From Cenococcum geophilum (taxonomy: Eukaryota): a stretch of 64,000 nucleotides of DNA. Positions within the stretch are counted from its first letter, which is position 1; each line of letters starts with the position of its first letter. Location of the stretch: the NCBI GenBank assembly GCA_050273025.1, contig CP158635.1, positions 18,972,001-19,036,000 on the forward strand, in the 5' to 3' direction. The notes under the pieces were generated by a model, which was not told where the DNA came from, made no database searches, and was given only the letters and a program-made list of their open reading frames with translations. Position numbers and translations under genes: made by a program. This document shows positions 15,001-56,127 of this stretch, piece by piece.

Positions 15001-16897
15001 GTAAATAATAATACGGATATTAATACTATATAAACTGGGGCCGTAAACGTCTAATTTGGCATCGGCTTAACTATATTAATTAGATTAGTAGTAGTTAAGA
15101 CCCTAATTAGCCTAGTTAACTTTTACGTAGTAAAAGCGGATACCCCTTTTCTACTCTGTCTTGCGGATATAGATAGGTTATAGGTTTACTACAATAATAT
15201 TACGGACACCGTAATTGGCCCCGTAACTGCCCTAGGAAGTAAGTATATCACCCTATTAATTATATGACGATTTAGACACCCGTTCCTTATATAGGGAGAG
15301 ACGTTATAGACCTATACTTAGAAATCTTTTAACTATAACCCGTGCTACCTTACTAGTACTGAAATTCACTACCTATACCGCTGTTTTGGCCACCTATTAG
15401 CCGAAAAGCTATATAGAGTCCTTAAACGCTCTAGACACAACGACGTTAATAGGAAGGCAATTAACTACCTAACTAAATACTACTCCTTTTGCCAGAAATA
15501 CGGACGTTCCCTAGGCTGATTTAAGTTTACCCTTTATAAGGATCTTAATTTTAACCACTTAGTGTACGTAGATATTATGTATATTAACGGCAGCCTAGTA
15601 TTATATATAATTGACGAGGCAACCCGCTACTAAGCCGCCCGTTAGTTGTAAAATATATTCGTAAAATATACTTAGGACACTTTATGGACCTACTAGATTA
15701 ATATATACGTTGGACCCCCTAAGTATATCACCCACAACGCTAGTAGGAACTTTATTAGTAAGGAATTCCAATAGTACGCTACGGCCATAGCTATTTTAAT
15801 AAAAGCCGTTCTAGTTAAGGCGTACTAGTCTATTAGGCTTATTAAGCGAGCTTACCTAGCTTTATAGAGAGCCTACTAAATTATTACGGACGAGTATAAG
15901 GATATCTAAAAGGAACTAGCTTTACAGATAGCCGTAAAAGCCGTTAATAACACCGCTGGCCCTAACGGACTAGTACCTACCCTTTTAGTTTACAGAGCCT
16001 ATTTAAGGATAGGCAACCTAAACCCTCCTGCTCCGTCTATTATAGAATAAGTAGCTATAATACGGAAGGCAATAGCCGAAATAGTTAAATTACGGGCTAA
16101 ATAAGCTATTAATAGCGCTCTATATTACCGTAACGGACTAAATATAACCTTAGTTTATAACCTCCTACTTAATTCAGAAGTCCTTATATAGCGTAAAAGC
16201 AGTAATTAGACCGGACCTTACCGTTTACTAGCTGTAGAAGACGAGATATACTGCGTATAACTTTCTAGCGGACTAACTAGCTTTAGAAGCACGTCTATAA
16301 AACCCTATTTTTGGTCCAAAAACACCTATAACGTTAAACTAGATAAACTAGAAATACCCCTGCCTTTAGATAAACTAGAAGCACCTATGCCTACTATAGA
16401 AGTCCCCTGTATACCTACTAAACCCACTAAACCTGCTGTAAAATGTGGTTAAGGATACCCCTAAAAGCACCCTATAACTAAAAACCCTATAATAGAGAAT
16501 TACCTAACCTCCGCAGGCATATCCGTAAGGCAATCTCCGCCTATAGATATATTAGTTCTAGTATAGGAATCCCCTTTTACGGACTTATAACGTAAAGAGA
16601 TTAACAGACTACTTAAAAAGGGCATCTTTACGGTTATAACGGACAGAGACGTTCCGCAAGGCGTCCGTATATTTAACTCACGCTTTATTAACAAGATTAA
16701 GCACCCTAGTACTAATAAAGCCTTTAAGAAATTAAGGCTCGTTGTATAAGCTTATAATGATAAGAGAAAGGACTTAGTCCTTATATAATCGCCTATAATT
16801 TAACGAGTTAGTTAACAAATTATACTTACACTTATACCTAGACTATAGCAAACCAAACCTATAGCCCTCTATTTATAGGATATCTTATAAGTATATA

Positions 16898-17921
16898 GTA
16901 GTAGTAGATTCTTTAATTAACGTCTAATACGGATCCTATCTAGGCCTATGCAGACTACTCCGTATACAAGGGGAAAGTAATATTGACAGGAAAAACCCCT
17001 TGCTATTGGGGGGAGGAAAAACCCTATGAGCTACCTCAGTAGGATGAAAAACCCCAAATTGCCATGCCTGCACGAGCAGCGGCCCTGCGGGCCTATAGCT
17101 CGTCCTCCTCCTTGGATGTTTCAAACTCCTTAGAAACCACTACTTCCTTCTCTAGCTTATCCAAAGCTAGGGTTCACTACGTCCTAGCTAGGCCTTGCTA
17201 ATCGATTGCTGTGTGCTTATAGTTGTGCCCCATATCTTAACCACCCCTATATGCTGTCTCTTGTTAACCATTACTATATACGCCATGCCTCCCCCCCCCC
17301 TAAGGCCTATCGAAGGCGTAAGGGGGATTCATCCGATCTACTATCCTAAAACTAAAAGATAAAAGCGGGATGTGTATGTGTGTGTGTATCTAGGTATCTT
17401 TTGTGCCTAGGCCCTAGTCACTAGGCCCTCTCTAAGGGCACCACTCCGTTGAGAGGAGACAAGGAAAACCGTATGGGGTTATCCAGCTGCCGCTTTCAGT
17501 AGTATTATAGCAGTACGGCGAGTGACCGCATACTCCGCGGGCGATCGCCCTAGGGGTTAGGAGGGGCCGTATATTTACTCGTTCGTTCGTTCGTTCGCGT
17601 TTACTTATTTGTTAATATAAGGTTGTTAATGCTTTCCACTAGGGGACGGGGGGTGATATCGAATACTGTGTATCTATGTTGGATTATATAGGTGCCCTGG
17701 ATAGGAGAATGTAGTAGTCGTTGTACTGTAGAGAGCCAACAGTAGTGGTTTTTAAGATCTCACTATCTGAAAATTTTTCACTACTGCCCTCAACGCCTAT
17801 AACCACCACAGGTCCTGTCCGCACGCTGTGCGACGTCTCTGCGTTAGCTCTGGATCTAAACTTCGAAGACCAGGTTCGTAGCCGTCACCACGTACAGGTG
17901 CAGAGTCCGATTTCGACGGCC
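16898..17921 (-). mobile_element. Non-autonomous non-LTR retroelement (SINE/SIDE-like, ~1.02 kb), copy 1
   Basis: 15-bp TSD TCTTATAAGTATATA (16883-16897, 17922-17936). Short (TAC)n tail. 3' end similar to the LINE end at ~33755-33813. Colinear with 38431-39443. Confidence 0.92.
17837..17921 (-). ncRNA. HDV-like self-cleaving ribozyme (P1.1 GU/AC variant)
   Basis: P1 GGCCGUC/GACGGCU, P2 CUCUGC/GCAGAG, P3 ACC/GGU, L3 UGUACGU, P1.1 GU/AC, P4 CUGG-UCU/AGA-U-CCAG, J4/2 GCUAAC (putative catalytic C at 17847). Confidence 0.85.
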
Positions 17922-26635: not shown

Positions 26636-28552
26636 GTCTTAAATCTTACTTATCTCGTCTTAAGAGTCTTATACCTTTAGGAAACTTCGTCCTAAGCTTA
26701 TTTATATATTACTAAACTAAGCTATTACTCTGCTCTATTAGTTATTATCCATTATAGGTCCTTAAGCCTATCTTATCCCTTCTTAAGAATCTTAAGCGTC
26801 TTATATCCCTTCTTAAGAATCTTAAGCGTCTTATATCTCTTCTTAAAAATCTTAAGCCTTTAGCCTTTTGCCTTTATTAAGTGCTAAAGTAGTTTACTAT
26901 CCTACTTCTCTTATATCTCGTAAAGTAATAGACATTATATCTAGTAGGGTCTTAACCCCTACTAATATTCTCTATTCTATAGTGGAATTATCTTTTACCT
27001 CTTTTATAATATCTCTAAGGTCTATATACTCCTAGTAAGCTACTTTTATTACCTTATTATTATAGAATGTTTTGCCTATATTAAATTTATTGTCCTTAAT
27101 ATCCGATCTACAAACTAGTTTATTAGTTCCTCTAAACTTTAATAATTTTAGCTCCTATAGCTAATAGCTTATACTATACTTAGCGTCCTTATAAATTTAG
27201 TATATATTATTATAATAAAACGTAAAACTCTAGATTAAATATTCTTTTATTCCTTATAGTATACTATTATCCCTCTATATATATATATCTTCTACTAGTC
27301 TTATTCCTTTTACTATATAGTAACTCTACCTACTTCTATAGTCTTTAATATAATAACTTTATTTTCTACAATTTATATAAGCTCCTTCTTTAAACTATTT
27401 TTTTTATTATAGAGTCCGCCTAAATATCTTCTACTACTAAGATCCCTAGTTCGGCCTCTACTCCTTAGACCTTTAATTACTTAATCCTTATCCTCTAGGT
27501 TTCTATAGTTATTTATTTTATTTCTAGGTTTCTTTAATACTACTTAGGTCTATTAGCTCTGCGCTATACTATAGTTTTTAATTTTAACTTTACTAATATA
27601 TACCTTGCGCCTTATATAATTATAAAACTCTATTTTAACCCTTTTTAATCTACTCTCTTTAGTAGATCCTATTATTAATCTTAATTACTTAATTAATTAA
27701 ATTCCTAAGAGTATCCGTATCTTCTATTAGGATAATTACATCCTAGACTTTTACTTTAAGTCCTTACTTATACTATACTATAAGCGCTTTATTATTCCAT
27801 TTAACCTATATTACTAATATTTAGAACTATATTATATACTTAATTACTAAAGTTCTCTATACTAGGTTTTAAAGTTTTTATTCCGCTATAGTAGTTACCT
27901 TTAAGTCTCTAAATATCTGCATTAAGTATTCTATAAACCCACTCTAACTTAAGAATATATATTATACCTCCTAGTTAGTAATTATTATACTATACTCTTA
28001 TACCTCTATAAGGTAAGGCTTAAACTACTTAAGTACTTTCCCTGTTAAGAATAATCCTATATAAGTAACTTAATCTATAGGCGTTCCTAGTTTAACTCCC
28101 TCCTATATAACCTTAAAGTATATTAATATAAGGAATCCCTTAAGTTTTAACTTCTCCCCTAAGAATCGCTTAATTAAGGGTAACTTAACCTTAGCTGCTC
28201 CGATTCTATTAATCTTTTCTTTAAATATCCTATTATTATCTATTAATTAATTAACCATTTCCTATAGCTGTCTAACGGTAACTAGCTAAGAGTTAGTATT
28301 TATTATACTAGTGTTATTACCTAATCCTAATATAGTTACTGCCATTAACGCTATTATAGCTACTACTTTTAGTAGTATATTATTTAACTTTATTAATACT
28401 ATAACCTTAGTAGTAAATATATAATAAAGCCTTATAGTAGAAACTACGGTAAACTTATTAATAGGCTAGATATATAGGTAAATAAGAAGTTAATAACGTA
28501 ATAATAACTAGTAGAGTAGTTGCCTAATAGATTAACTCTAATTATATTCTAA

Positions 28553-28638
28553 GCCCGCGAAGCCCTACTGCACGCGTCCACGTCGCCGCGGGTGGAAACA
28601 TCATCTGGAATCCTATTCCTATTGATGGCCAAGTGCAG
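28553..28638 (+). ncRNA. Canonical HDV-like self-cleaving ribozyme at the LINE 5' end
   Basis: P1 GCCCGCG(28553-59)/CGCGGGU(28587-93), P2 CUGCAC(28568-73)/GUGCAG(28633-38), P3 GCG/CGC, L3 UCCACGU, P1.1 CC/GG(28594-95), P4 CAUCA..GGAAU/AUUCC..UGAUG, J4/2 GCCAA (putative catalytic C at 28629). Confidence 0.93.
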
Positions 28639-31600
28639 AGGCGATGGTAGAGAGCCGTCACAGCGCGTGCAGCGCTGTCGTTCGACTCTATAGTAATGGG
28701 CCCGCGACGCGTACAAAGCATCGCCCTCAACAACACCAGGAGCCTTACTGCCTCCGCTTAGAGCTCTTGTTCTACCATCTAGGGAGGCCTAGCAAGGGAA
28801 ACTAGGATACGAAAACCGCCCGATATACGACTACCTGGCTTATAGCCAGGCCCGAAACTGGCCTTATCCAGCCAGTCAACGTAGACGCGTCCTAGGCGTA
28901 TAACAGGACACCCTTAGGCTTGCACTAGCTCTAAGATCGCGAAGTATACGCGATAAGGGCGTAGGGATCCTCCTTTTATAAGAACTTGTTAAGGTTAACG
29001 CGTTACAGATACTTCGTACGAAACTTGTTAAGGCCCCAAGGCCACCGCGAAGAACTTGTTAAGGCCCTACCTAGAGAACTTATTAAGGCCCTTCTATAAG
29101 GGCCTATCTGGTATCTAGTACACTCAGGTGACTTAGAAGAGGGTCTTAATAGGCGTGGTGCGCGCGACCTAGTACAGCAACAGCGACGCGACGGCAACGC
29201 GACGGCGACGCGACGGCGACCAGACGGCTCAACGAGGTGGAAACACGGGCAAAGCTCTAGGCAGCGGAAACACAGGCCAGCTTCAACGGCCCCATGGCGT
29301 TCGACTCACAGTCGACTCACAGGCGACTTACTGGAGGGTCTTAATAGGCGTAGTGCACGCAACCTAATGCGCATATGCATAAGGCGACTCATAGGAGGGT
29401 CTTAATAGGCGTGGTGCTCGCAACCTGATGCATATATATAGGGGAGGCTATAGGGGAAACACAGGCCAGTCGGACGAGGACTTGACAGTTAGAGACATAG
29501 GCCAGCTTATAAAAGGGGGGGACACAAGCTTAGTTAGTAGGAGAGGGGAGAGCAGGTCGTCTGGTATGGGACCTAATATCTCTACAGCCCCTCTCCTATA
29601 AGACACGGTCGGCCTATTATAAGGAGACTTATAGGTAACGCGAAATAGGAACTGGCAGCAGTATAGGGTATTGCGCCCCTATATTACTACTAGCCTCCCA
29701 TAGGGCATAGTGCGTAATAGCTACTACTAGCTCTAAGGACCTTACCCCTTAGCTGGGCCCTAACCCTTAGTATACCTAGTAGGCAGATAGGATTACGTCC
29801 TAGCTGGAGAAACTACTACGTGGCTTAAGAGAACGGATATGCGTATTAGTATACCAATAAACAGAACCGTTCGCCCCTAGGGCGGTACGCCGGTAAGGTA
29901 TACTTAAGGAGTAAACAAGAGTTACTTAGGTAGGGGAGGCTTTTAGTCTAGGCCTTAACTATAGAAGGTACCCAAGGCTTCCATATTGCAGGATGCAGCC
30001 ACGACGCCCTCGTAGGATTACGCTAGTAGGCACGTAAGAAGGGAGTTGCGACCCCTAAAAGCGGCAGCTTATGCCTATACCGGCGGAAATAATAAAGAAA
30101 GGCGTAAAACTAGAGGCTATAGAAGGCTCCTAAGCCGTGCGAAAGTATACTAACTTTAGGAGGAGATTCTTATATAGACCGCTAGGGGGTGGTCTAGTAC
30201 TTAGGATAACCCCATTATAAAATACCTAAAAGAATAGTAAAAACCCCTATTAATTAGTAGTGGCAGCCAACTGCTTATAGAAAGCCCCCTAGGCCTTTAG
30301 GCCTAGGTAACTAGGATAAATACTAGAAAACTAGGGCAGAGGTCTGGATAAGTAGGCATATTAAACTCTACTATATAACTACCTACTAAATATATAGGGG
30401 ACTAGTACAAATTATTAATATATATAACCCTAGGGTCGAAGGGGTCCCATAAATAGAGAATATTATATTAGTAATAAGCTTACTAAAAACCGAAGGTATA
30501 GAGTCTATCCTATTAGAAGATATAAACCTCTACTACCCGCGGTGGGGGGGTATTCATATTGCTGTAGATTAACAGTTAGAGTGCCTACTAAGAGCTATAG
30601 ATATCTGGGGCCTTAAGCTAGCCACCCCCCTAGGAGTAATTATATGGTAACGAGGCACCGCCAGAAGTATAATTAACCTTATATTTATAAACGAAGGCCT
30701 ATATTAAAGACTTAAAAGGTATAACCCTAAAGAAGAATAGGCACTTACCCTAGACTATATCCCTATTTAGATACAGCTAGACCTAGATACTAAAGCGTAA
30801 CTAAATAGAAAAAGATACGCAATAAGAAAGCTTAAGATAAATAGTTTCCTTAATACAGTTAAATAACAACTCTAAAACCTAGAAGAAATCTACCTAATAC
30901 TAAACAAGCGAGGCTTATTAGCCACCCCTAAGGAAATCAACCGAAGACTAGAAAGGATCTAGGCAGCGATTAAAAATAGGCTAGAAGAGTACCGCCCGAT
31001 CTTAAAACTGGGCCCCTACGCGCGACACGCATGGTCTATATAATACGTAGTTTTAGTTACCAGCTAATGACGAGTAAGAAGAAAATATATAAGCAGCCAT
31101 AACCCTAAAGACGAGAGATGATATAAAGACATAAGAAACTAGCTAAAGAATACCCTAAAAAAAGAAGTAAGGAATAACTGGAGACGGTTTATAAACGAGC
31201 ATACTTCTAACCCGAGCCTCCCCTATAATAAGGGCCTTTAGGCTATAGCGAAATGGGTAAAGAAAAAGGTAGGGCGCCTAGTAGAAGACCTATACTTACC
31301 ACCCCTATAAAGAGTAGGAGAATTATAGGCTATAAATAACAATAATAAGAAGGCAAAGATCCTTATAGAAAAGTTCTTTCCCTAACCGGCTTTAGTAGAC
31401 CTTAGTAATATTACGGGTGAAACACTAGTAACTCGCCTATAGGTCGACAGCGATATAATAATAGAGGAAATGGCTAGAACCATTAGCCGCCTTTTAAATA
31501 ATATAGTACTAGAACTAGATAGGATTCTAAATAAGGCCCTAAAAACCTGTGGGCCACTTATAGCATCTTAGCTTATAGATATAGCTAGAGTATGCTTTGC

Positions 31601-33813
31601 TATAGGCTACTACCCGCAACTTAGAAGATCTATAACAACGGTTATCCTATAAAAAGAAGGTAAAGTAGATTACTTAATCCTAGGAAGCTACCGCCCTATT
31701 GCCTTAGAAAACACCCTTAGTAAGATCTTAGAAAGGGTAATAGCAGAATGCATAGTAGATACGGCAGAGGAATATACCCTACTACTATAAAGCTAAATAG
31801 GGGCAAGAAAGAACCGCTTAATATTATTAGCACTTACGCTACTCGCTACCACCATTAAATCTATATGGGCGATACGAAAGGACTTTATAGTATTAATACT
31901 TAGCCTAGATATTAGTGGTGCCTATAATAATATACCCCACAAGCGTCTCCTATATATCCTTAGGGTAAAGGGCTTTCTAGAATGGATTATATAATTTATC
32001 TAAGGGTTTATAGGCTAGAAAGAAATATTACTGGTTTTTAGCGGATACTAGAGCCCCCCTATTGCAGTTACAACAGGAATACTATAAGGATTACCCCTCT
32101 TACCTATACTCTTCCTTTTCTTTATAAGTAACCTACTTAACTCCTTTAAGGAAGGGGCGACCTAGGGGATAGGCTTTGTTAATAATATAAACCTAATTAT
32201 ATACGGGCTAACAGCCATAGAGAATTGTAGAATACTAGAGAAAGCCTATAATACTTATATAGAATAGGTAAGACGTTATAGAGTCCAATTCTTACTAGAG
32301 AAATACTAGCTAATCTATTTTATAAGAAAACGTAACTAATCTATAGATTTTTAGTATATAATTCGTATCTAAGGCTTTAGGGGTTAACTAGTTTAGGGCC
32401 TAAGGGTACTAGGAGTATAGGTAGATAGTAAGCTCTAGTGGAGCGTATATACGGCGTAAGCGGCCTATAAAGGCCAAGCATAGTTTATTGCTTTATTTAG
32501 GATTGTTAATTTTATATAAGGTTTATGCTTTTAGAGGTTACGCCTACTATATACAGTAGTTGTCTAGCTAACCATAATATATAGATCCAGTATTTGGGCC
32601 ATTAGAGAAACTAAGAAGGGCCCCCTAAAATTACTCCTTAAATTACTTTAAAAGGTCTAAACAGCCTACCTCTAAAGTATTATAGGCGGATATAAGCAAA
32701 CGGCTACAGCACTGCTTAAGAAGGAATCCAATATTCCCCCCCTATAGTTATATATTAAAGCCGCTGTAATATAAAGGATATAAAATAAATGTAACTCTAA
32801 TATTATAAAGTATATTAAGATACGCTTAAGTAAACTATAGAGGGACCTTAGGGTGCCCTATAGGAGAACAAACCAATAACCCTAAAGTAGGGAAGAGATA
32901 TTAAAGAAATAGGTAAAGAAAGCAGAAGAAGAATGGTGTCGCTTTAGGGCCTAGGCCTATATAGAGGAGGAAGGGAAACGCGTAAGAGGTTAGCAAAGAT
33001 AACAGTAAGATAGAGAAAGGAGCTAAAGTAGAACACGTAAGAATGCTGGGAAACTATCTACCGTAATGCAATACTAGTTGGACTAACGCTAGAGAGGCGA
33101 ATGGAAGTTAAAGGTATAAAGGCTAACTTAGGTAAGACGAACCTAAGCTATAGTATGGTTAACGCTATGGGGGGTAAATACCTAAGGGCTCCGAGAAGGC
33201 CTAATAAAGGTAGAAAATATAATAGTAATACTCTTAAGAACAGGAATAATAGGACTAAAAGATTGGCTTTACTAGGTAGGTGTCCTAGTAGGTAGCCTGA
33301 GATATAAATGTAGCTAGCTAAGATAGACACTAAAACACGTAATATTGCTATGCCCCCTATACACTAATTATAAAATAATGCTCTTAGTAGCTGGCATAGA
33401 GAACTATAATATACTGCTCTTAATATAAAAAGGCCTTAAGGCGGTTACCTAGTGGCTTATTAGTTAAAATATGCTAAATTAGTTCTAGGTTGTAAGGGAA
33501 ATGGTAATAAAAGGTAAGGGGGCGAGCAGCAGGTGCCCCCTAGTAACTCTATAGTAGTAGAGTAAAAGTTTATAATACTAGCGCGTCCGTAGGCTTGTTA
33601 CGGCAGCAGTGGTTCCTAAGGAGGTTAAATAGTAAGGTAGTAGAGCACCATAGGCAACTTATAGACGCTAAGTAGGCGAGTCCCAAAAGGCGGGGAGATG
33701 GATTACGGGGTTTTCTCATTTTTCTTAAATAGAGTTTTCTCCCTATATGTAAATAAGGAGTAGTCCGTGTAGGCCTAATAGGGATCTAAATCGGACGTTA
33801 AGCAATGAATTAT
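28553..33813 (+). mobile_element. 5'-complete Tad1-like LINE (RIP-degenerate) inserted in the Gypsy 5' LTR
   Basis: TSD TAATTATATT(C/T)TAA at 28539-28552 and 33814-33827. Decayed APE endonuclease (~30400-30780) and RT motifs (YRPIALENTL ~31690, LDISGAY ~31905, QGSPLSPILF ~32085, GFVDD ~32172). Confidence 0.92.
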
Positions 33814-36800
33814 TAATTATATTTTAAGATTTACTATAAAAAAGAGAAACTATTTATAGAGACCGTGTGTCCTTAAATATATAACTCCTCCCTATAGTAA
33901 AGGGTTTAGTATATTAGTACATTAGTATATTAATACGTCGCGTTCCTATATTCTTACATTCCTACGTTTTAAACTTATAACGTAACTAGCTATATAACTT
34001 AGCTACCCCTTATCCTATAGCTTAATCAGTTCTAGCGCCTCCTGTACTATCTTAACTAACCCACTTATATCCATTCTTAGTAGTCGCACTACTGCTAATA
34101 TAAGGTCCGTAACAAATAGAGGCAGTAGCGTTAATAGTATTAGTAGGGCTGCCCTCTATAGGCGTATCGTCATCGGCTATTAAAAGCAGTAAGTAGATAT
34201 TATAAATTAGTTAATATATTAATAAGTCTCTAACTATTTATTCTATATAGGCCTTTTTAATATCCTACGCGGATTATATAACTATTATCCTTACCGCCCT
34301 TTCTATTTGGTAATAGCTTTTTTTTAGTAAATCGCCTACCAAACAAATGCCTCCTACTAGGTGGGAACACCTCCTGCTTTAGTATTTAGAAGAGGCGCTT
34401 ATACCTTATAGATTACGCCTAAGTAGGCCGTAAAATATTAACCTAGTTACGCCTACCTAGTAGAGCCGACCTAGCTAAAAAAAGGTATTAAATATAGCCT
34501 TATACAGAGCATTAAGAACCTTATAGAAGGCGCTAATAGGGGCTAGTTATAGCGTCTTATTACCTACTAACAGGCTTACTGTAGACGTCGAGTGCTGAAA
34601 CTCCTACGCTACGAACCTTCTAGTTAGCCCACCCCTGTATCTAGCCATAAATATTATTAGCTTCTGCTCCGCTAATATACCTTCCTACGTATATAATTTG
34701 TAGTCGTTTATAAGCCAATTAAGGAGCAATTTGAACATTCGTTAATTAAGGCGTGTTAACGTTTTAAGCGCCTGCGGAGGACCGTATAATAGCTCTATCG
34801 TTCTTGCCTTACCGCGAAGAGGATTAACAAGTTGCTAGCGCCTGCCATTTAATGCTAGAAGGTTCTTTACATACTTAATAAGTACATAAAGCAGCAATAT
34901 CATCGCTAGAACGCCTATTAATACTATAGCTAATATATAAGGCTTTATTGACCTAAGGTACAAGTAGTCTATATTTTTAGGTCCTGGATTTCAAACCTCC
35001 GCCAAGCCAGCTTCTGATTGGTTAGAAAGCCAGCTTCTCATTAGTTAGAGAAAAAGTTACGCGCGGTAAGTTGTGGTAGAATCCACGTAACGAATATTAA
35101 AATATTATAAACATCAAAATATCGCCTTCCTTTTTGTTGACACCTCTATTAATACTACTATATATATTATAAATATGGTAGATCCTACTATAATTGAGCA
35201 GCAAGTGCCATATCTATAAGCCCCGCCTTAACTTTATTAAAGACGGCCCTTTAAAAAAGATTTTAAAGCTATGCCAGTTATATCGGTCAAAGGCGCGTCT
35301 TCCCTATATATTACTTCTACTTCTACTTACTTTTCTAGGCCTCTAAGTATAGTTTAAGTAAGCGAAGAGCTCTTATAGAGTTAGGTTCTACTACTAAGAA
35401 TCGTCCTGTAAGGCGCCAGCGAACTACTCTACCTAAAAATAATACCGAGAACGCCTTCCTGCCTTACGGCCAGAACAGTTAAGATACCCCTAAAATAGCT
35501 TAATAACGGAAGACAATTAGGGTAATATAACGGGAGCACCGCATTTTTAATTAGTGGGGTAAAGCTTACTTGCCTACTCCTCCGCTATATACCACAGATA
35601 AAGCTCCGTATAATAGAAGAGGCACTCTAAATAGCCTAAATACGTCCTTGCTAGAACTAGCTCCTATACCTACTCTACTACTAATACCTACCCTACCTCT
35701 AATACCTACCCTACTACTAATACCACCTTTCTTACGGCAAGCTCCCTTATAGTAAGCTCCCTCACAGTAAGCTCTGACTACGGCTACACTACTATCTGTT
35801 TCGGCTGTTAATTGGGAGCAAATTAAGAAGTTTAGGAGTATACTATAGGCTAAATATATAGAGACGTGTAGTCGTTATAAGGAGCGGTAGTTTTAAATAG
35901 GTATAGCTACGGAGGGTAATAATATGGGTGTATATAAAGCCTATATTAAGGACGCCAATAGCCTTAAATATTTAACCCTTTTTTCCCTATTTAGTAAAAG
36001 TAATGGGCTTAATCTAGGGCCTGTTCCTAGCTTCTTACCTATACTTACCACGGTAGAGGAGCTTCTAATTGCGCGCGTATACGTTTATCTACAAGTTATG
36101 CGTATATATAGCTAATAACATCGCTATACTGGCTATATCTACTACTTTGGCCAGAATACACTAAAGACTTAGAGATAGCTACTACGGCTACCTACTAAAC
36201 TTAATATACTGGTTGTAAGGCCTATAGTAGTAAAGGGTAGCAAATACCTAAGTTGGCGGTTTACTAAGCGGTATACTGTAAGGCGCTCTACTATAGTATA
36301 GTAGCTTTACTTTTTAAAGGTTAATTATCCTAATTATTGCGACGTTAAAATATATAGCACCCGGCTTACTAGCTTACCCAAAAATGGCTCTATATTAGAT
36401 TAACTACCTTATATTAACGAGTTAGAGTCTAATTCTAGTGGCCCGACGGCTTACCCTACTGCTTTTATATAACGTCCTCCTACTATTAATCCTTTGCCTA
36501 CTAAGCTTGGTAGTAATATACTAGACGGCGAATTTAATAATAATATACTAGATACTTTGGTTCCTAATCTAGTACCTAACCTTAGTAAATTAGAGCTTTT
36601 AGGTCGCGAGGTTTAACACTAATAAGACCTATAAGCGGGCTTAGAGGTTCCTACTGTATAATAGACACCTCTCTCTAAGTAATTAGCTAGTTTTATTATG
36701 CGCGGCGCCTTTCCTACCCTGTTTCCTTATGGCAAAGCCAATTTTAATATGCTGCGAAGCCGTACGGTTACCCTAGCTACGTACGCTAAGCATATGCTTA

Positions 36801-38430
36801 AGTATTAGGATGGTTAGTTTAGCCGCTACCCCTTATTTCGCTACTATGTGTTTAATCGGATTATAGGAGAGTAAGCCCTTAACGCCACCCGTTTCCTTTA
36901 CGGCTAATTAAATAAAAATAGTCTATCTTTAAATAAGCTTAGTAATATTATAAATAGTAATAGGGGTGGCTAGTTACTAAATAAGATTGTATAGTATATA
37001 CGGAGCCTTAAAGGCACTAGACTTTACTAGAGGCAGAAGAGAAATAAGCTTACGGCTTATGCTAAGAATATTAAGAGCAGGTCTCTATTTTTTACACTTA
37101 GCGCTACTAATCTATATTAGTATAATCTATACTCTTATATACCTCTATTTAATAAATATAAGGCTACTAATAAGGCTTAGTGCTACTAGATTGCTTCTTA
37201 AAATCTTAATAATAATCTATATATTGCTGCTTACTAGCTATATCGCCGCTTTGATCTGTTTAGGAAGCACGTGCTTATAGGCCTATTTAATAGCACTAAC
37301 TTTTAGTCCTAATATAAGTAGTAGGTATAAGGTAGTGGCTATATATATAGCTTTTTATAGAGTTTAACGGCCCTAAGGCCAGATCCGTTAGCTATTAAAT
37401 TAAGGGCGGCTTTTGCTAAATACTGGGCTACTTTTATATCTGTAATTAATCCTAATTAATCTAAGCCTCCTAATCTCTAATATTCTTCTACTCTAAGCTA
37501 TAAAGAATAGCTTAATACTAGTGAGCTTCTTACTGCCTACCTTAATCGATTTTAACGGCACCGTAATTGCACCAAATCTTACTGCTTAAGATTAAAGAAA
37601 GGCTCTACTAGAGCAAAGGAGTGCCGCTTCTATTTTCCACGGTCTCTCCGTAATAAGGCTGCTATATTAAAGGATTAAAATTTATATTACTGGATGTTCT
37701 GTCTATAGCGTAATAATAAGCTTCTTAATGGTTATAATGCAGCTATAATATTAGCGTAGATGGCGAATATTAATACGTCACCCGCTATAAGCATATTAGT
37801 AATAGTTAACTATATAGGCAAATATTACAGCAAGGAAGAGAAGAAGTTAACTTCCTACTAGGAGTTACTTTAATTAGTACAGCCGCACGCTAATAGCCTT
37901 TATACCTTTAGTTTAGTTGTAATTAGGTTTATAAACAATCTTATTACCAAACGCGATTAGTTAGTGTAGGAGGTATACTATCTGCTTTTTAATATTCCCC
38001 TTTATAAAGGCTCTAGGAATATAGTAACTTTAAATTACCACTAGGAGGATGATTAAAGCGCTACGTATAAGCTTAATAATAGGTAACTAAGAGGGTATGG
38101 ACTGTCTAACTATAATAAATATAAGCGCCGCCTAGATAGGGTAGAGGACGTTACTTTCCTTAATTTTCTACTCTATTTTAATTACTTTACTTATAAGCGT
38201 TGGCTAAGAGCAAAGCCTTTAGTTATATCGTACTTTCCGCAATATAACGGCGATTGTTTTTATCTGTAGTATCCTAAGTTCTGCTATATAAAGCTTATTC
38301 TTTATTACCCGTAAAGGGAGTATAAGGAAGTAGCTACTTATACTAATAGATTTGGGGCCCCTAATTATATAGCTTCCTATTAGGCTTGTGTTAACTCTTA
38401 TTAGTACCTACCTAACTACTTTTATAATTA

Positions 38431-39443
38431 ATAATAATTAATAATAATAATTCTTTAATTAACGTCTGATACGGATGCTATCTAGCCCCACGCAGACTAC
38501 TCCGTACACAAGGGAAAAGTAATATTGACGGGAAAAAAACCCTTGCTACTAGGGGGGAGGAAAAACCCTATGAGCCACCTTAGTAGGATGAAAAACCCCG
38601 TTTGCCATGTCCGCACGTAGCAGCGGCCCTGCGGGCCTACAGCTACGTCCTGTCCTCCTTGGATGTTCGAACTCCTTAGGAACTACTGCTTCCTTCTCTA
38701 GCTTATCCAAGCTAGGGTTCACTACGTCCTAGCTAGGCCTTGCTACTTAATTGCTGTCTTGCTGTTGTTTCCTATATCTTGGCCATCCCCTATATGCTAT
38801 CTCTTATTTGACCATTGCCATATACGCCATGCCTCCCCCCCCTAGGGCCTATTGAAGGCGTAAGGGGGATTCATCCGTTCCAATTACCGTAATACTAACA
38901 GCGGGATATGTTGTATTGGGTATCTTTTGTGCCTAGGCCCCAGCTAGGCCCTTTCTAAGGGTTACTACTCCGTCAAAAGGAGATAAGGAAAACCGTGGGT
39001 CGCAATCCAGGCTGCTGGGTATTTGGTACTTGTCAACGGCGAGTGACCGCATGCTCCGCGGGCGATCGCCCTGGGGGTTAGGAGGGGCCGTATATTTGCT
39101 CGTTCGTTTGCTCGTTCGCGATCGCTCGTTCGTCGATGTAAGAGGTCGTTGATGCTTTCTGTTGGGGGTCGGGGGATGCTATCGAATGCTGTATATCCAC
39201 GTTGGATCGTACAGGTGCCTTGATAGGAGAGTAGCGTAGCTGAATTGTAGAGGGCCACAGTAGTGGTTTTCGAGATCTCACCATCTGAAAACCTTTCACC
39301 ACCGCCCACAACGCTTACAACCACGACCACCAGGTCCTATCGCACGCTGTGCGACGTCTCTGCGTTGGCTCTGAGTCTGAACTTCGAAGACCCAGGTTCG
39401 TAGCCGTCACCACGTACAGGTGCAGAGTCCGTTTTCGACGGCC
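38431..39443 (-). mobile_element. Non-autonomous non-LTR retroelement (SINE/SIDE-like, ~1.01 kb), copy 2
   Basis: 14-bp TSD TACTTTTATAATTA (38417-38430, 39444-39457). (ATT)n tail. Same GGCCGTC 5' start as copy 1. Confidence 0.92.
39358..39443 (-). ncRNA. HDV-like self-cleaving ribozyme (P1.1 GU/AC variant)
   Basis: P1 GGCCGUC/GACGGCU, P2 CUCUGC/GCAGAG, P3 ACC/GGU, L3 UGUACGU, P1.1 GU/AC, P4 CUGGGUCU/AGACUCAG, J4/2 GCCAAC (putative catalytic C at 39368). Confidence 0.87.
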
Positions 39444-40247
39444 TACTTTTATAATTAGAAACTAGAGGAAGGTTGCAAAACTACTAATAATATTAATAAG
39501 TTTAAAAGCAATTTCGCAGACAACTTAGAGCTATATTAGTCCTTTAAGGCCCTATATACCCGCGTTTAAAATATTAACGGAGTTAAACTTAAGGATCCTA
39601 ACAGGCTTAGTAATAAGGAGCTTAATTATAACTACGACTAGAGTATGCATTAGGGTACGTATCCGCAGCTTAATAAGAGGACTTATTGGTAGGAAGTACG
39701 GCTATAGCCTCTATCGTAGAGCCGCCTATTCTAAATAGCAACTCCGTCCTCCTTATAACTAGGTTAGCGTTATATCTATAATATTATAGTTAATTACTAT
39801 AGGCAGATCTAAGTAGGCCTTGGCCCCCCCCTACTACGGATTAACGTTAATAGAGAGGCAGGAACTGGCAAATCGCATCTTATTACTGTCCTCTCTACTA
39901 CGCTCTATAATATGGTAAGGGCTAATAATAAGCCGTCGCCATTAGCTTAAGCTGCCCCTACTAGGGTAGCTACCTTTAGTATTAACAGCAGAACTATATA
40001 TAATCTATTAAGGTTGCTAGTAAATTATCCGTTTAAGAAATTGCCTACTACCAGTCTTATACCTCTATAATAAGCTTTTAAGGATATTTACTATTTTATC
40101 CTTAACGAGAAATCTATAATCAGGCAAGTATATCTAGCCTAGATTAATTACCGCCTCCGTTAAATTTACTCTGCGCGTAATAATAACTACTTTAAAGGCT
40201 TAAACATCTTGCTAGTAGGCGATTTCTATTAGCTTCCCCCTATAGGT

Positions 40248-49544: not shown

Positions 49545-50430
49545 CAGCTTGGGGGGGTCACGGAAAAACTCGGCGGGGTCACAAAGTTCAACGGGGTCAC
49601 AACCTTTCTGACCCCGCTCAACTTCTGACCCCGCTGAGCTTTATGCATATGCAGTGCATATACAGACCAATTTTTTTATTTTATAGAATTTAAAGTATTT
49701 TATATATATAAAATAAGTTATATGCGAGGCATATGCGGGGTATATGCAGGGCATATACTAAATTAAAATAAATAACCCAAGTTGTTAAAATATGCCTGTA
49801 TACGCGTTGTATGGTCTCAGCATATGCAGAGTATATGCTCTGTATATACTCTACTGATTTTATATTTATTTTAAAGAGATTTTACTCCTTTATATACTAC
49901 CTTTTAAAGTATTACATTTATATTTTATATAAGGTAGGCTATGCTATAGTATTTACTTAGTATATATAATATAAAAAAAATTATATAATGCTTAAGGTAT
50001 ATATACTTATTATATACTTTCTATTAACTATAGCAGTAAATAAGTAAGCTAGGTTATTATAGTATAGACTATGCGTATGTATTACATATGCTAAGCATAT
50101 ACAAAGTCTATACATACACTAAATTTACATAAGGTAGGGTGCGCTATATTATCCCTGCATATGCTGAGCATATACTCAGCATATGCACCCACCAATAAAC
50201 CATTTAACGCATATATCTTGTAGTTGTATATATGCATATACTTAGCATATGCACCGCATATTTAATGCATACGGTCGCTAAAGGCAAATTGTGGCTACCG
50301 ATGCGCGTTCTGTATGGGTAAAAGTGTGACCCCGCCGACCTTTTTCCGGTGCTCCATCGGTGACCCCGTTCAACTTTCGCCGACCCCCATCGGTGACCCC
50401 TTTCAACTTTTCCGTGACCCCCCCGAGCTG
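49545..50430. mobile_element. Non-autonomous Tc1/mariner-like TIR element (~886 bp)
   Basis: 23-bp TIR CAGCT(T/C)GGGGGGGTCACGGAAAA. Subterminal GGGGTCAC/TGACCCC repeats and many internal GCATATGC motifs. Left flank TA, right flank CA (imperfect TSD). Confidence 0.75.
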
Positions 50431-52204
50431 CACCCCGGGCGTCCCACCAGGAACCCCCCCTTCAAAACGGTAGGTCCAGGTGGAATTCGCCTAGGTGGGT
50501 AGCCCAGGTGGCTCGAATTGCTGATTAAACATGCTGCTATACTAGATTCGGGAGCGCAATCGCGGCTGGTGCGAACGCCTCCACCTGGCCAGATGAAACC
50601 TCCTTTTCAGCTGCCAAGACGTCTAATCTGCCCAAAATCCACCTAGGATGTCGAACAGACCGTATCCACCAGGTGGATATCGATATCGGTGGCCCGTTCG
50701 CGGCCAAGTGGCTCCAGGTGGCCCCAGGTGGCTTTTTTAGAGAGCCCACCTGGTGGAGTTGACCTGGCCAAAAAAAGTTATCGCACATGGCCTAATAAGC
50801 CCGCTTGGACGCCGGACGGTTACTTTTCCGGTTTGAAGGTTCACTTCCAAGACGAAGCACATTGAATTTGGGTTAGTTAGTGGCTTAATCGAAAGCGCTA
50901 ACCACCGCATTTGACGAGAGGGTGTTCTTTTGGCCGATCTGACACGTTGTTATAACGCGGCTTAAGCACACTTTGAGAATTGCGGACTAAGGCTAATTGA
51001 CCTGGGACCATGTGTAAGTTTGAGACGCGAGGGACAAAAGCGGGAAAGTGCAAAGCAATCTCTCCGCAGGTCGTTCCGTACGAATCACGTTGCTTGAAAA
51101 GAGAGTTTGCTCGCAAGCACGTTTGCGGACAACAACGCGCATGAGTTCAGCAGAGGGAATTCTGGTGGCATGACCCGGCTTTACCGAAGTTTGGAGACTG
51201 TCCCTCGCGTTTAACAGGTGCCCGCTCAAGCCAAAGGTTACGAAGGTCCAGAACATATCACGGCTGAAAATATGAGGTTCCAGATCTCACCTTTGAGCAC
51301 TTTTGCCAAGCCATCCTCCAATCAGCGATGGCTTGGCGTTCCGCCCGCCAAGAAAAGGCCAGGCCGTTCTTATTATCTACCGCGCTTGATTTTCTCAGCT
51401 TCCGCCGCAACTTCTCCGAAAACGCGCGCCATTACATCCCCTGGATTGGTTAGGAAAACGTCTCGAATTGCAGCAACATATTAAGATTCAGCTGATTGCA
51501 AAAACGCCATTCACATCCTCATTGAATTACCAGTTGACTGTACACTTCGACAGCAGCCGGACGCGAAATGCCAACCACTCCTTGACTATCCCCCACCGCC
51601 CAGGTCTTAGCGTGGATTATTTCCATCAACCCACCTAACAATTATCCACTGCGGTCGACGATAGCCTCAGCACCATGTCTGGCAACCGGGAGGGCCCATT
51701 GGTCACTCGCGCGGGTAGGAAACGCCAAGGGCCTTGCACAAGCTCCAGAGTTCTTTGTCTTCACAGGTGCCTACCACCAGCACCCAGCTCGACGCTCTCA
51801 GCCATGAATCAGGCAGACGAACGAGGCACTTAAGTTCTCACCCCGCAGGCTTCAATCGCCGCTACAAAGTTCAATGGCTGCTGTCATCTGACTACTAGAT
51901 CCCGGTTCTGTGGCGAGCCTCTCGCCAGCGTGAAGCGCCTACACATCATAAAATCAAGATATAAGACTTCATGACTGTCAGCTCGGAACTTCAGCAGCAT
52001 TCAGATCTTCTGTTACGTTCATGCTTAACACCTGAAGTGCACCTTACACCTGATCAAGGCTCCGACCTAAAACATCCCTTAGTCTGACAGATTCACCTTA
52101 AATTTGAAGCTTGAGACAGATATCTCTTTTTACAATCCGCCATACGTTATATCATCAACGAGTGTAGCTCAGCGGCCATCATCATTCGCGTCTAAGCCTT
52201 CTAC

Positions 52205-55147: not shown

Positions 55148-55269
55148 GGGGTGTTTTGGGTTGTTTTTGTGTTGGTGTAGTTGGGGGGTTGGGTGGATAA
55201 TGTGGGTGAAAAGTAACATATTGTCTCACGCACTGGTTCAAGTCTTATAGTTAATTTCCCACCTTTACT

Positions 55270-55730
55270 AAGTTAATAAGTGCCTCCCTTTCGTCCTCCT
55301 GCCGTCGCCTCCCTTTCGTCCTCCTACGTCGTCGCTAGGGCGTCGCAGGCTATATAGCCCCTAAAGACACGTCACCAGACGCTAGCTACCGCAACCAACC
55401 ATTCCACTACAACGAGTCTACTACAGACAACCAGCCACCGCAACCATTCTACCACAACTAGTCTACCACAGACAACCAATCTACTACAGATGCACCGCAA
55501 GCTATCGCGCTGCAGACAGCTACTACACTATAGGCGCACGGCAGAGGTACCGCAGGTACGCCGCAGACGTACCGTAGACGCACCGCAGACGCAGACAACA
55601 ACCACTACCAACCACTACAATATACCACATAACCAATTCACCGCAGACGTACCGCAAGCTATCGCGCTACAGATAACTACCATAACCACCATAACTACTA
55701 TGGGTATACTGCAGATACGCCGCTAGGGTA
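55270..55730. repeat. Low-complexity degenerate direct repeats (GCCTCCCTTTCGTCCTCCT x2; CAACCA/ACCGCAGACG units), probably a TE relic
   Basis: Direct repeats are visible; RIP-like TA enrichment resumes here. Confidence 0.5.
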
Positions 55731-55902
55731 GCTATAGTAGTAGGGGGAAAGGGGCCGGCCTGTATTACTTTAGCACGTTAAATATAAGGTGTATAAGGGA
55801 ATTGGTATTTATACCCTATATAAGATAATGTAAGCTTTGCAGTGTGGGAATTAAACGAGCGACTTAATTGTAAATGTAGCTCTAAAGCGTCTATATATAC
55901 AC

Positions 55903-56127
55903 TGTAAGGGGACTTTGTAAACAGGGGGCTATAAGGACACAATCGTAGAACAGGATAGATTGGTAAGAGAGACGAATCCTTGAGGAGGTAAGGCCTCTGG
56001 GATCGTGGAGACTATATACTACGGGCACGTGCCTTCGGCACGTAACCGACAGACAGGGTGTCCGGGGGTTGTCCTAAGGGCAACCTAAGGTAACAGCAAT
56101 AATATCCCTTACATTACCCCCCCCCTT
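55903..56127 (-). mobile_element. 3' LTR (55903-56113) with adjacent polypurine tract of a truncated LTR retrotransposon
   Basis: TGTAAGGG..CCCTTACA ends, followed by TTA plus a C-run (G-run on the minus strand). No TSD and no second LTR. Confidence 0.75.

What the first reader, a model, noticed from the sequence alone, without database searches (positions are those of the whole stretch)
39358..39443. HDV-like ribozyme with a compensatory, non-canonical P1.1 helix (GU/AC instead of CC/GG)
Seen: L3 is U-GU-ACGU and the two bases after P1 are AC. The LINE ribozyme in the same window has U-CC-ACGU and GG. Both positions co-vary so the 2-bp P1.1 pseudoknot is preserved. Established: the HDV-like consensus has YC in L3 pairing with G(G). 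Inference: a natural structural variant that motif descriptors fixing the L3 UYC sequence would miss.
Basis: partly seen in the sequence, partly recalled or inferred. Interest (0 to 1): 0.85.

Follow-up and report, generated by a model that had tools for sequence, protein, structure and literature searches.

The report
Self-cutting RNA heading a fungal SINE
A hepatitis-delta-type self-cutting RNA sits at the exact first base of an abundant, expressed 1-kb mobile element; two pairs of its core pseudoknot are swapped but still paired, which makes it an unusual member of a well-known class.

Summary
On the minus strand, 39443-39358 folds as a complete HDV-like double pseudoknot. It has a 7-bp P1 with G1.U, P2, a 3-bp P3, L3 U-GU-A-CG-U, P4 and J4/2 C-C-A-A. 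The two bases after P1 (AC) pair with the GU of L3.

A descriptor that asks only for pairing finds 3 sites in the window, against 0.01 per shuffle. All three are the first base of a retroelement flanked by target-site duplications:
- Two copies of a 1.0-kb non-coding element.
- One 5.3-kb LINE, whose homologous ribozyme has the usual CC/GG.

A metagenome scan with P1.1 left open gave 121 more copies: GU/AC in 98, AU/AC in 23 (RIP-type decay), CC/GG in none. In 98 aligned copies column identity rises from 0.49 at -1 to 0.95 at G1. Of 62 testable copies, 42 show duplications a full element length apart. P4 varies with compensation. Stranded RNA covers the element in sense and stops within about 10 nt of G1.

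Cleavage itself is untested. Within the family P1.1 never co-varies, so the covariation rests on one LINE-versus-SINE comparison. Active HDV-family ribozymes with non-G:C P1.1 are already published, as are ribozyme-headed non-autonomous elements. This is a new member of a known kind, of modest interest.

The parts
39358..39443 (-). HDV-like ribozyme, copy A (86 nt). G1 = 39443, catalytic C76 = 39368. P1.1 = G27 (39417)-C44 (39400) and U28 (39416)-A43 (39401).
   Evidence: Sequence read; descriptor hit; pair counts.
38431..39443 (-). Non-autonomous non-LTR element, copy A (1013 nt). It has the ribozyme at its 5' end and ends in a GACGTTAATTAAAGAAT box plus a (TAT/TAC)n tail.
   Evidence: 82% identical to copy B over 1033 columns; alignment A1; bounds.
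39444..39457 (-). 5' target-site duplication of copy A (TAATTATAAAAGTA), abutting G1.
   Evidence: Exact repeat at 38430-38417.
38417..38430 (-). 3' target-site duplication of copy A.
17837..17921 (-). HDV-like ribozyme, copy B. It has the same L3 (UGUACGU) and AC. P4 has one G deleted and CU changed to UC, with pairing kept. C77 is changed to U.
16897..17921 (-). Non-autonomous element, copy B (1025 nt). Its 14-nt duplications (ATATACTTATAAGA) lie at 17935-17922 and 16896-16883.
28553..28644 (+). Canonical HDV-like ribozyme at the 5' end of the LINE: P1 GCCCGCG/CGCGGGU, P3 GCG/CGC, L3 UCCACGU, P1.1 CC/GG, J4/2 CCAA, P2 CUGCAC/GUGCAG.
   Evidence: in-register alignment with the SINE ribozyme.
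28553..33813 (+). LINE degraded in a RIP-like way (about 5.26 kb). ORF2 stays in one frame with 106 in-frame stops. It is the likely autonomous partner.
   Evidence: RVT_1 at E 5e-12; intact 1026-aa relative at 69% identity with endonuclease and RT domains; duplications at 28539-28552 and 33814-33827 with 1 mismatch.
33754..33813 (+). 3' end of the LINE that resembles the 3' end of the 1-kb element.
   Evidence: 74% over 89 nt (33754-33841), E 1.6e-7; alignment A2; 79-82% to the tails of copies in L035 and L039.

Best explanation
The 86 nt form a working HDV-like self-cleaving ribozyme. It is the first module of a 1.0-kb non-coding, non-LTR retrotransposon, SINE-like or SIDE-like, in what looks like a fungal genome affected by RIP.

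Proposed mechanism:
1. The element is transcribed in sense, either from an internal promoter or as part of a longer transcript.
2. The ribozyme folds: P1-P1.1-P4 stacked beside P2-P3, with U26 and G31 of L3 and C76 of J4/2 at the active site. It cuts just 5' of G1.
3. The RNA therefore begins at G1.
4. The reverse transcriptase and endonuclease of a partner LINE recognise the shared 3' end and (TAC)n tail, and copy the RNA to its 5' end by target-primed reverse transcription. The window holds a degraded copy of such a LINE, which carries the homologous ribozyme with a canonical core.
5. Every full-length insertion then starts at G1, between 10-15-bp target-site duplications.

In this family the two-pair pseudoknot P1.1 is G27-C44 plus U28-A43, not the usual two C-G pairs.

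Shown here: the fold, the boundaries, the partner relation, sense expression, and conservation of the core between subfamilies. Inferred: cleavage itself, that P1.1 forms as drawn, and which LINE supplies the proteins.
For: 1. Fold. The strict pairing-only descriptor gave 3 hits in the window against 0.01 per shuffle, and each hit is at the first base of a duplication-flanked retroelement.

2. Conserved residues. U26, C30 and G31 are present, though they lie in letters the search pattern fixed. G1.U42 occurs in 84 of 89 distinct rows. C76 is kept in 119 of the 120 copies that could be parsed, out of 123.

3. Boundary. In 98 aligned copies, column identity is 0.35 at -2, 0.49 at -1, 0.95 at G1 and 1.0 at +2.

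4. Duplications. Of 62 testable copies, 45 repeat the 10-14 nt just upstream of G1. In 42 of these the repeat lies 937-1032 nt downstream, right after the tail. Control words taken 30 nt further upstream hit 6 times.

5. DNA contigs of run X1. Their unmatched ends begin at 39443 in 13 contigs and at 39444 in 12, with unlike sequence beyond.

6. Selection on RNA structure:
- P4 has 3 pairs with changes on both sides (33 cells) and several length variants that still pair.
- Between the four subfamily consensuses, positions 1-21 differ by 3.2% and positions 74-86 by 0%. P4 differs by 29%, and the next 244 nt by 14-18%.

7. Homology with the LINE ribozyme. The two align in register. The unpaired core letters are shared (U..ACGU, AAC, CCAA). 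P1, P3 and P1.1 all differ but still pair.

8. Shared 3' end with the LINE.

9. RNA, raw reads of X24:
- First-mate-on-plus depth far exceeds first-mate-on-minus depth (about 26-fold in the bin at the ribozyme), which by the tool's note means minus-strand RNA, the element's sense.
- Depth is 1439 in 39394-39432, 57.8 in 39433-39471 and 0 beyond.

10. Precedent for activity with a non-G:C P1.1: PMC13635239.
Against: - No cleavage assay exists.
- The RNA molecule ends pile up at 39433 and 39434 (240 and 317 molecules). That is 9-10 nt inside G1, not at G1. Loss of the last bases in library preparation would explain this, but that is my inference.
- A precise 5' end can also come from an internal promoter. 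The strong sense bias across many copies suggests such a promoter exists.
- P1.1 never co-varies within the family. Its pairing alone could be chance at roughly 6-14%.
- The copies were chosen by an exact match to 20 letters of positions 22-45, so conservation of P3, L3 and the 3' strand of P1 is built in. Only positions 27, 28, 43, 44, 1-21 and 46-86 were free.
- Nested folding energy is not exceptional.
- Only the 40 best-supported of 322 variant rows from the read lay were shown. The absence of rows inside the ribozyme is therefore soft evidence.
Confidence: 0.75

Rival explanations
1. The fold is a relic. The change of P1.1 (or other drift) has killed cleavage, and the RNA 5' end at G1 is set by an internal promoter in the first about 90 nt, whose DNA sequence is what is conserved.
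For: - The strong sense-strand bias of RNA from a dispersed repeat points to an element-borne promoter.
- In L1Tc the same 77 nt are both promoter and ribozyme (PMC3383444, abstract in the listing).
- The RNA ends seen lie at 39433 and 39434, not at G1.
Against: - P4 changes in a compensated way and by length while staying paired. The core is invariant between subfamilies that differ by 14-18% downstream. A DNA promoter does not need base pairing.
- All the residues the descriptor treats as catalytic are kept.
- Non-G:C P1.1 helices are compatible with fast cleavage (PMC13635239).
Confidence: 0.12
2. The ribozyme is active but P1.1 does not form as G27-C44/U28-A43. It works with one pair, none, or a different register, and the GU/AC complementarity is coincidence.
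For: - There is no covariation at these four positions in 121 copies found with them left open.
- Chance complementarity is about 6-14%.
- L1TcRz works with a single P1.1 pair (PMC3185411).
- The C. briggsae and phage ribozymes tolerate a non-Watson-Crick second pair (PMC13635239).
Against: - The four positions sit in the same columns as CC/GG of the homologous LINE ribozyme, and both pairs are Watson-Crick.
- U28, A43 and C44 are invariant in 121 of 121 copies although they were left open.
- The only change, G27>A, matches neutral RIP-type decay.
Confidence: 0.1
3. It is a chance match to a loose motif, with no RNA function.
For: - My first, permissive descriptor gave hundreds of hits in this AT-rich window.
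- A relaxed descriptor gave 6 hits against 3.5 per shuffle.
- Rfam finds nothing.
Against: - The strict descriptor gave 3 hits against 0.01 per shuffle.
- All three hits lie at element 5' ends bounded by duplications.
- 97.3% of cells are paired in register on 119 copies, against 27-46% when slid.
Confidence: 0.02

Closest known systems
HDV-like ribozymes at the 5' ends of non-LTR retrotransposons and their short derivatives: R2 and R2 SIDEs (PMC3774820; PMC3414825), L1Tc/NARTc/SIDER (PMC3185411; PMC4035085)
   Same: - Double-pseudoknot ribozyme whose cleavage site is the element's first base.
- A non-coding derivative keeps the 5' ribozyme and the LINE's 3' end.
- Copies are flanked by target-site duplications.
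   Different: - The host appears to be a fungus with RIP-like decay.
- The partner is an APE-type LINE without an RNase H domain in its intact relative, not R2 or ingi.
- The derivative's ribozyme has diverged from the LINE's in P1, P3 and P1.1.
- The tail is (TAC)n.
Natural HDV-family ribozymes with a non-G:C P1.1: C. briggsae (U:A + C:U), Ackermannviridae/theta (U:A + U:U), CPEB3 and L1TcRz (PMC13635239; PMC3185411)
   Same: P1.1 departs from two C-G pairs while the fold and the L3 and J4/2 core are kept. In the published cases cleavage is fast.
   Different: Here both pairs are Watson-Crick, and the first has its purine on the L3 side (G in L3, C after P1). I found no report of that arrangement in searches. 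Activity is untested here.
Variant HDV ribozymes of fungi (Li and Breaker 2017, PMC5640933): 230 examples in 26 species, two shown to cleave
   Same: Fungal HDV-class ribozymes that escaped the standard descriptor. A C lies between P2 and P3, and C22 here could be read that way.
   Different: - That class typically has a C-G pair at the cleavage site and an E-loop in P4. Here the pair is G.U, and I saw no E-loop motif.
- That paper does not mention retrotransposons (0 occurrences of the word).
- Its alignments (.sto files) could not be read, so I cannot say whether a GU/AC P1.1 occurs among them.

Membership tests
HDV-like (delta) self-cleaving ribozymes | Nested double pseudoknot in the order P1-P2-P3-L3-P3'-P1'-P1.1-P4-J4/2-P2', with a 7-bp P1 and a 3-bp P3 | tested here: met
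   Strict descriptor hit. 97.3% of 2254 pair cells are standard pairs on 119 copies, against 27-46% when slid. P3 and the 3' strand of P1 were fixed by the search pattern.
HDV-like (delta) self-cleaving ribozymes | G1 paired with a pyrimidine (G.U or G-C) at the cleavage site | tested here: met
   G1.U42 in 84 of 89 distinct rows, A-U in 4, unpaired in 1.
HDV-like (delta) self-cleaving ribozymes | L3 with a conserved U and CG (U-G reverse wobble), as fixed in the descriptor of PMC6326823 | tested here: met
   L3 = U26-G-U-A-C30-G31-U. These letters were fixed in the metagenome pattern, so their constancy there is uninformative.
HDV-like (delta) self-cleaving ribozymes | Catalytic C opening J4/2 (C-N-R-A or C-R-R-A) | tested here: met
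   C76-C-A-A. CCAAC occurs in 109, CUAAC in 8, CCAAU in 2 and UCAAC in 1 of the 120 parsed copies, out of 123. The second letter is C or U, which fits CNRA but not CRRA.
HDV-like (delta) self-cleaving ribozymes | P1.1 made of two C-G pairs (CC in L3, GG after P1) | tested here: not met
   GU/AC in 98 and AU/AC in 23 of 121 copies, CC/GG in none. Pairing is kept (G-C, U-A) but the letters differ. Published active members also break this rule (PMC13635239), so I do not treat it as excluding membership.
HDV-like (delta) self-cleaving ribozymes | Site-specific self-cleavage 5' of G1, giving a 5'-OH and a 2',3'-cyclic phosphate | not testable with these tools
   Indirect evidence only: element copies start at G1, and RNA depth collapses within about 10 nt of G1.
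HDV-like (delta) self-cleaving ribozymes | Match to an Rfam HDV-family covariance model | tested here: inconclusive
   No hit at the gathering score over the window, nor at E up to 10 locally. The canonical LINE ribozyme is missed too, so the models are not sensitive here.
Fungal variant HDV ribozymes (Li and Breaker 2017) | C-G pair at the cleavage site | tested here: not met
   G1.U42. The feature is as described in section 7 of PMC5640933.
Fungal variant HDV ribozymes (Li and Breaker 2017) | Extra nucleotide (usually C) between P2 and P3, and an E-loop replacing part of P4 | tested here: inconclusive
   C22 can be that extra C or a sixth P2 pair with G81 (C-G in 86 of 89 rows with no covariation). 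I did not recognise an E-loop at the base of P4. The family alignment could not be read.
Ribozyme-headed non-autonomous non-LTR retrotransposons (SIDE/NARTc type) | 5' ribozyme homologous to that of a LINE, 3' end shared with that LINE, target-site duplications, and no conserved ORF | tested here: met
   - 5' ends align in register.
- 3' ends are 74% identical, E 1.6e-7.
- Duplications occur in 45 of 62 testable copies.
- The only ORF of 120 aa or more is in copy A (38965-39330) and is absent from copy B.
- No tRNA, 5S or 7SL match at the gathering score.

The most novel reading that the evidence does not exclude
The purine-in-L3 P1.1 (G-C plus U-A) may be the functional core of a hugely amplified, expressed fungal element. 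If so, HDV-like ribozymes accept any Watson-Crick P1.1, and descriptors that fix CC/GG hide a sizeable class of ribozyme-headed LINE/SINE pairs in fungi. The first 90 nt might also double as promoter and ribozyme, as in L1Tc.
Probability: 0.25. Interest if true: 0.55.

Novelty: new member of a known kind. Interest (0 to 1): 0.35.

Why it matters
If it cleaves, this is a natural HDV-class ribozyme in which both P1.1 pairs are replaced and the first is flipped, carried by a family with very many copies and clear expression.

- It gives a ready-made set of natural mutants: subfamilies with different P4, and decayed A27 copies. These can test how much the identity of P1.1 matters.
- It argues for defining P1.1 by pairing, not by letters, in genome searches.
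- It links fungal HDV-class ribozymes to a LINE and its non-autonomous partner. The main fungal survey I read (PMC5640933) does not discuss that setting.

The kind of system and the tolerance of P1.1 to change are already known, so the gain is incremental.

Tried and rejected
- **Descriptors.** My first descriptor was far too loose (259 hits on the plus strand alone) and was dropped. A relaxed descriptor looking for further ribozyme types gave 6 window hits against 3.5 per shuffle (maximum 10). It gave nothing credible beyond the three known sites and the A27 copies.
- **Rfam.** No HDV family matched at either ribozyme.
- **Whole genome.** None is held. The records behind the metagenome loci cannot be searched, so I found no further copies of the LINE's ribozyme. 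BLAST of the LINE's first 300 nt against the 121 loci matched only the window itself.
- **Second LINE.** A diverged LINE lies at about 57.9-63 kb. I saw no HDV-like fold at its apparent start.
- **Earlier notes of this scan.** There was nothing for this sequence or genome.
- **Papers not held.** PMC1369799, PMC3256349 and PMC3159031 were unavailable. What I recall of the original P1.1 mutagenesis and the 2009 descriptor is therefore unverified and not used as evidence.
- **Theta-ribozyme paper.** PMC10879173 has no text on P1.1.
- **RNA ends.** The pile-up at 39433 and 39434 does not pin the 5' end to G1, and I do not count it as proof of cleavage. I could not see whether any X24 reads bridge G1, because 657 loose-end rows were not shown. 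One low-depth contig of the RNA run X5 (depth 2.9) spans 39416-39520 exactly, but it may be DNA carry-over.

Full report
**What is there**

Read on the minus strand, 39443-39358 is an 86-nt sequence that fits the HDV-like double pseudoknot position by position:
- P1 is GGCCGUC (1-7) with GACGGCU (36-42), opening with a G1.U42 wobble.
- J1/2 is 9 nt.
- P2 is CUCUGC (17-22) with GCAGAG (81-86).
- P3 is ACC with GGU.
- L3 is U-GU-A-CG-U (26-32).
- The two bases after P1 are A43 and C44.
- P4 is an 8-bp stem (49-56 with 66-73).
- J4/2 reads A-G-C76-C-A-A-C.

G27-C44 and U28-A43 would make the two-pair P1.1. A second copy lies at 17921-17837 on the same strand. A ribozyme with the usual L3 (U-CC-A-CG-U) and GG after P1 starts at 28553 on the plus strand.

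**Is it more than chance?**

A permissive descriptor was useless in this 63% A+T window. I then used a strict descriptor that fixes only the letters treated as conserved in a published descriptor. These are U and CG in L3 and C-N-R-A in J4/2 (PMC6326823, passages). P1.1 was defined by pairing alone.
- It finds exactly three sites on both strands of the window.
- 100 block shuffles give a mean of 0.01.
- On an alignment of 119 copies, 97.3% of 2254 pair cells are standard pairs in register. When the 3' partners are slid by one to three columns the figure is 27-46%.

Three results are not supportive:
- Nested-only folding is unremarkable: -28.4 kcal/mol, z -1.25, and 25 of 200 shuffles fold as well.
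- Rfam has no match at either threshold. It also misses the canonical LINE ribozyme, so that says nothing about P1.1.
- The P1.1 complementarity taken alone has a chance probability of roughly 6-14% (my arithmetic).

**What the ribozyme belongs to**

The two minus-strand copies are the first 86 nt of a 1.0-kb element.
- Copy A runs 39443-38431 and copy B runs 17921-16897. They are 82% identical over 1033 columns.
- Similarity begins at G1.
- Each copy ends in a conserved box followed by (TAC)n or (TAT)n, and each is flanked by a perfect 14-nt target-site duplication that abuts G1.
- There is no conserved ORF and no tRNA, 5S or 7SL head.

The plus-strand ribozyme opens a 5.26-kb LINE at 28553-33813.
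- Its duplications lie at 28539-28552 and 33814-33827, with one mismatch.
- Its ORF2 stays in a single frame with 106 stops, nearly all TAA or TAG. That pattern is expected of RIP.
- The frame matches RVT_1 at E 5e-12.
- It also matches an intact 1026-aa protein at 69% identity, with endonuclease and reverse-transcriptase domains and no RNase H.
- The last roughly 90 nt of the LINE resemble the 3' end of the 1-kb element (74%, E 1.6e-7). Some subfamilies of the element carry the LINE's own version of the terminal box.
- The two 5' ends align in register. They share the unpaired core letters (U..ACGU, AAC after P1.1, CCAA) and a stretch just past the ribozyme. P1, P3 and P1.1 all differ but still pair.

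The 1-kb element is therefore a non-autonomous partner of this LINE family. It is of the kind known as SIDEs for R2 (PMC3414825, abstract in the listing) and as NARTc/SIDER for L1Tc (PMC4035085, passages).

**More copies**

No genome is held. I scanned metagenome contigs with a 24-letter pattern covering positions 22-45, with the four P1.1 positions left open.

P1.1:
- GU/AC in 98 of 121.
- AU/AC in 23 of 121.
- CC/GG in none.
- U28, A43 and C44 never vary.

Boundary and duplications:
- In 98 copies with enough flank, column identity is 0.35 at -2, 0.49 at -1, 0.95 at G1 and 1.0 at +2.
- Of 62 copies that could be tested, 45 repeat the 10-14 nt immediately upstream of G1.
- In 42 of those the repeat lies 937-1032 nt downstream, directly after the tail. 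Control words from 30 nt further upstream hit 6 times.

Conservation:
- C76 is kept in 119 of the 120 copies that could be parsed, out of 123.
- P4 exists in at least six forms of different length and sequence that still pair. Three of its pairs change on both sides, in 33 cells.
- Between the consensus sequences of four subfamilies, positions 1-21 differ by 3.2% and positions 74-86 by 0%. P4 differs by 29%, and the following 244 nt by 14-18%.

One caution applies. Positions 22-26, 29-42 and 45 were fixed by my pattern, so their constancy means nothing.

**The G27>A copies**

I read them as decay, for three reasons:
- The change is TpG>TpA, the RIP type.
- Its frequency (0.23 in the 98 aligned copies) lies within the range for other TpG/CpA sites of the element (mean 0.20 downstream, range 0.02-0.47).
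- It appears in every P4 subfamily. The A27 copies carry more C>T/G>A changes elsewhere (median 18 against 15, one-sided Mann-Whitney p = 0.011).

The family's founding form is therefore GU/AC. Within the family there is no covariation at P1.1. The covariation claim rests on the single comparison with the LINE ribozyme.

**RNA**

The run search listed 24 runs. Twenty hold at least part of the stretch, across 12 studies, and seven are on record as RNA. I laid one raw RNA run (X24), one RNA contig set (X5) and two DNA contig sets (X1, X4) on 38380-39520 at 85% likeness.
- The element is highly repeated: 5663 contig pieces were laid in X1 and 4099 in X4.
- In X24, first-mate-on-plus depth far exceeds first-mate-on-minus depth (about 26-fold in the bin at the ribozyme). 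By the tool's note this means minus-strand RNA, the element's sense.
- Depth is 1439 in 39394-39432, 57.8 in 39433-39471 and 0 beyond.
- Molecule ends pile up at 39433 (240) and 39434 (317), which is 9-10 nt inside G1. Loss of the terminal bases during library preparation would explain this, but that is my inference. The data place the RNA 5' end near G1, not at it.
- In X1 DNA contigs, unmatched ends begin at 39443 in 13 contigs and at 39444 in 12, with unlike AT-rich sequence beyond. That is the same boundary as in the metagenome copies.
- None of the 40 best-supported variant rows falls in 39326-39443, but 282 rows were not shown.
- The strong sense bias suggests that the element also carries a promoter. 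This keeps open the rival reading that the 5' end is set by transcription start.

**Comparison with what is known**
- HDV-like ribozymes at the first base of non-LTR elements, and of their short derivatives, are established (PMC3774820, PMC3185411, PMC4035085, passages; PMC3414825, abstract).
- Fungal HDV-class variants were described and shown to cleave by Li and Breaker (PMC5640933; abstract, section 7 and passages read). Their class has a C-G pair at the cleavage site, an E-loop in P4 and an extra C between P2 and P3. The present ribozyme has G.U and no E-loop that I could recognise. That paper never mentions retrotransposons. Its alignments could not be read, and they may bear on whether GU/AC has been seen before.
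- P1.1 need not be two C-G pairs. The C. briggsae ribozyme has U:A plus C:U and a phage ribozyme has U:A plus U:U, and both are fast and crystallised (PMC13635239, passages). L1TcRz has a single pair (PMC3185411). The trypanosomatid study states that the 2009 descriptor was too restrictive (PMC4035085).
- In my searches, in a library that lacks most subscription papers, I found no report of a P1.1 with G on the L3 side plus a U-A pair. I also found no report of a fungal LINE/SINE pair headed by HDV-like ribozymes.

**Verdict**

The altered P1.1 is the family's founding state and is fully paired. That it forms, and that the RNA cleaves, remain inferences. It is a new member of a known kind with an unusual P1.1. 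It is worth a cleavage assay but is not a surprise to the field.

Noticed in passing
window 28553-33813 (+): A LINE whose ORF2 keeps a single reading frame over 1367 codons but carries 106 in-frame stops, nearly all TAA or TAG. This is the signature of RIP-type C>T mutation, not of frameshift decay.
   Followed up: partly
window about 57900-63000 (+): A second, diverged LINE: 60940-61641 is 66% identical to 31632-32330 of the first. It starts abruptly after AT-rich flank near 57900. I recognised no HDV-like fold at that start, so it may be 5'-truncated or headed differently.
   Followed up: partly
window 39208-39218 (-), about 225 nt into the element: An exact 11-nt repeat of the ribozyme's GCACCUGUACG (the end of P2, P3 and L3) recurs inside the element and is present in the family consensus. 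It may be a partial duplication or a competing segment.
   Followed up: no
window 39429-39441 (-): The nested minimum-energy fold pairs CCGU of the 5' strand of P1 with ACGG in J1/2. This alternative hairpin could compete with P1. The A12 partner is U or C in other subfamilies, so it is not kept by covariation.
   Followed up: no
Flanks of 98 copies (loci L001-L121 and the window): The 15 nt upstream of G1 are A+T-rich with a weak TTAATTAATATAATA consensus. This suggests a TA-rich target preference of the endonuclease, or simply insertion into RIP-degraded DNA.
   Followed up: no
window 33814-34112 and 10326-10624: A 299-bp repeat, 87% identical, begins right at the LINE's 3' duplication. It is another repeat family into which the LINE inserted.
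   Followed up: no
window 38808-39226 (read lay): Hundreds to thousands of raw RNA reads leave the copy-A sequence at fixed points (38808, 38876, 39038, 39219), with consistent unlike sequence beyond. Expressed relatives therefore carry replaced internal segments.
   Followed up: no
window about 50000-56000: The only G+C-rich island (0.48-0.56), and it holds most of the long ORFs (52205-53017, 54445-55219). It is presumably host genes between RIP-degraded repeat blocks.
   Followed up: no
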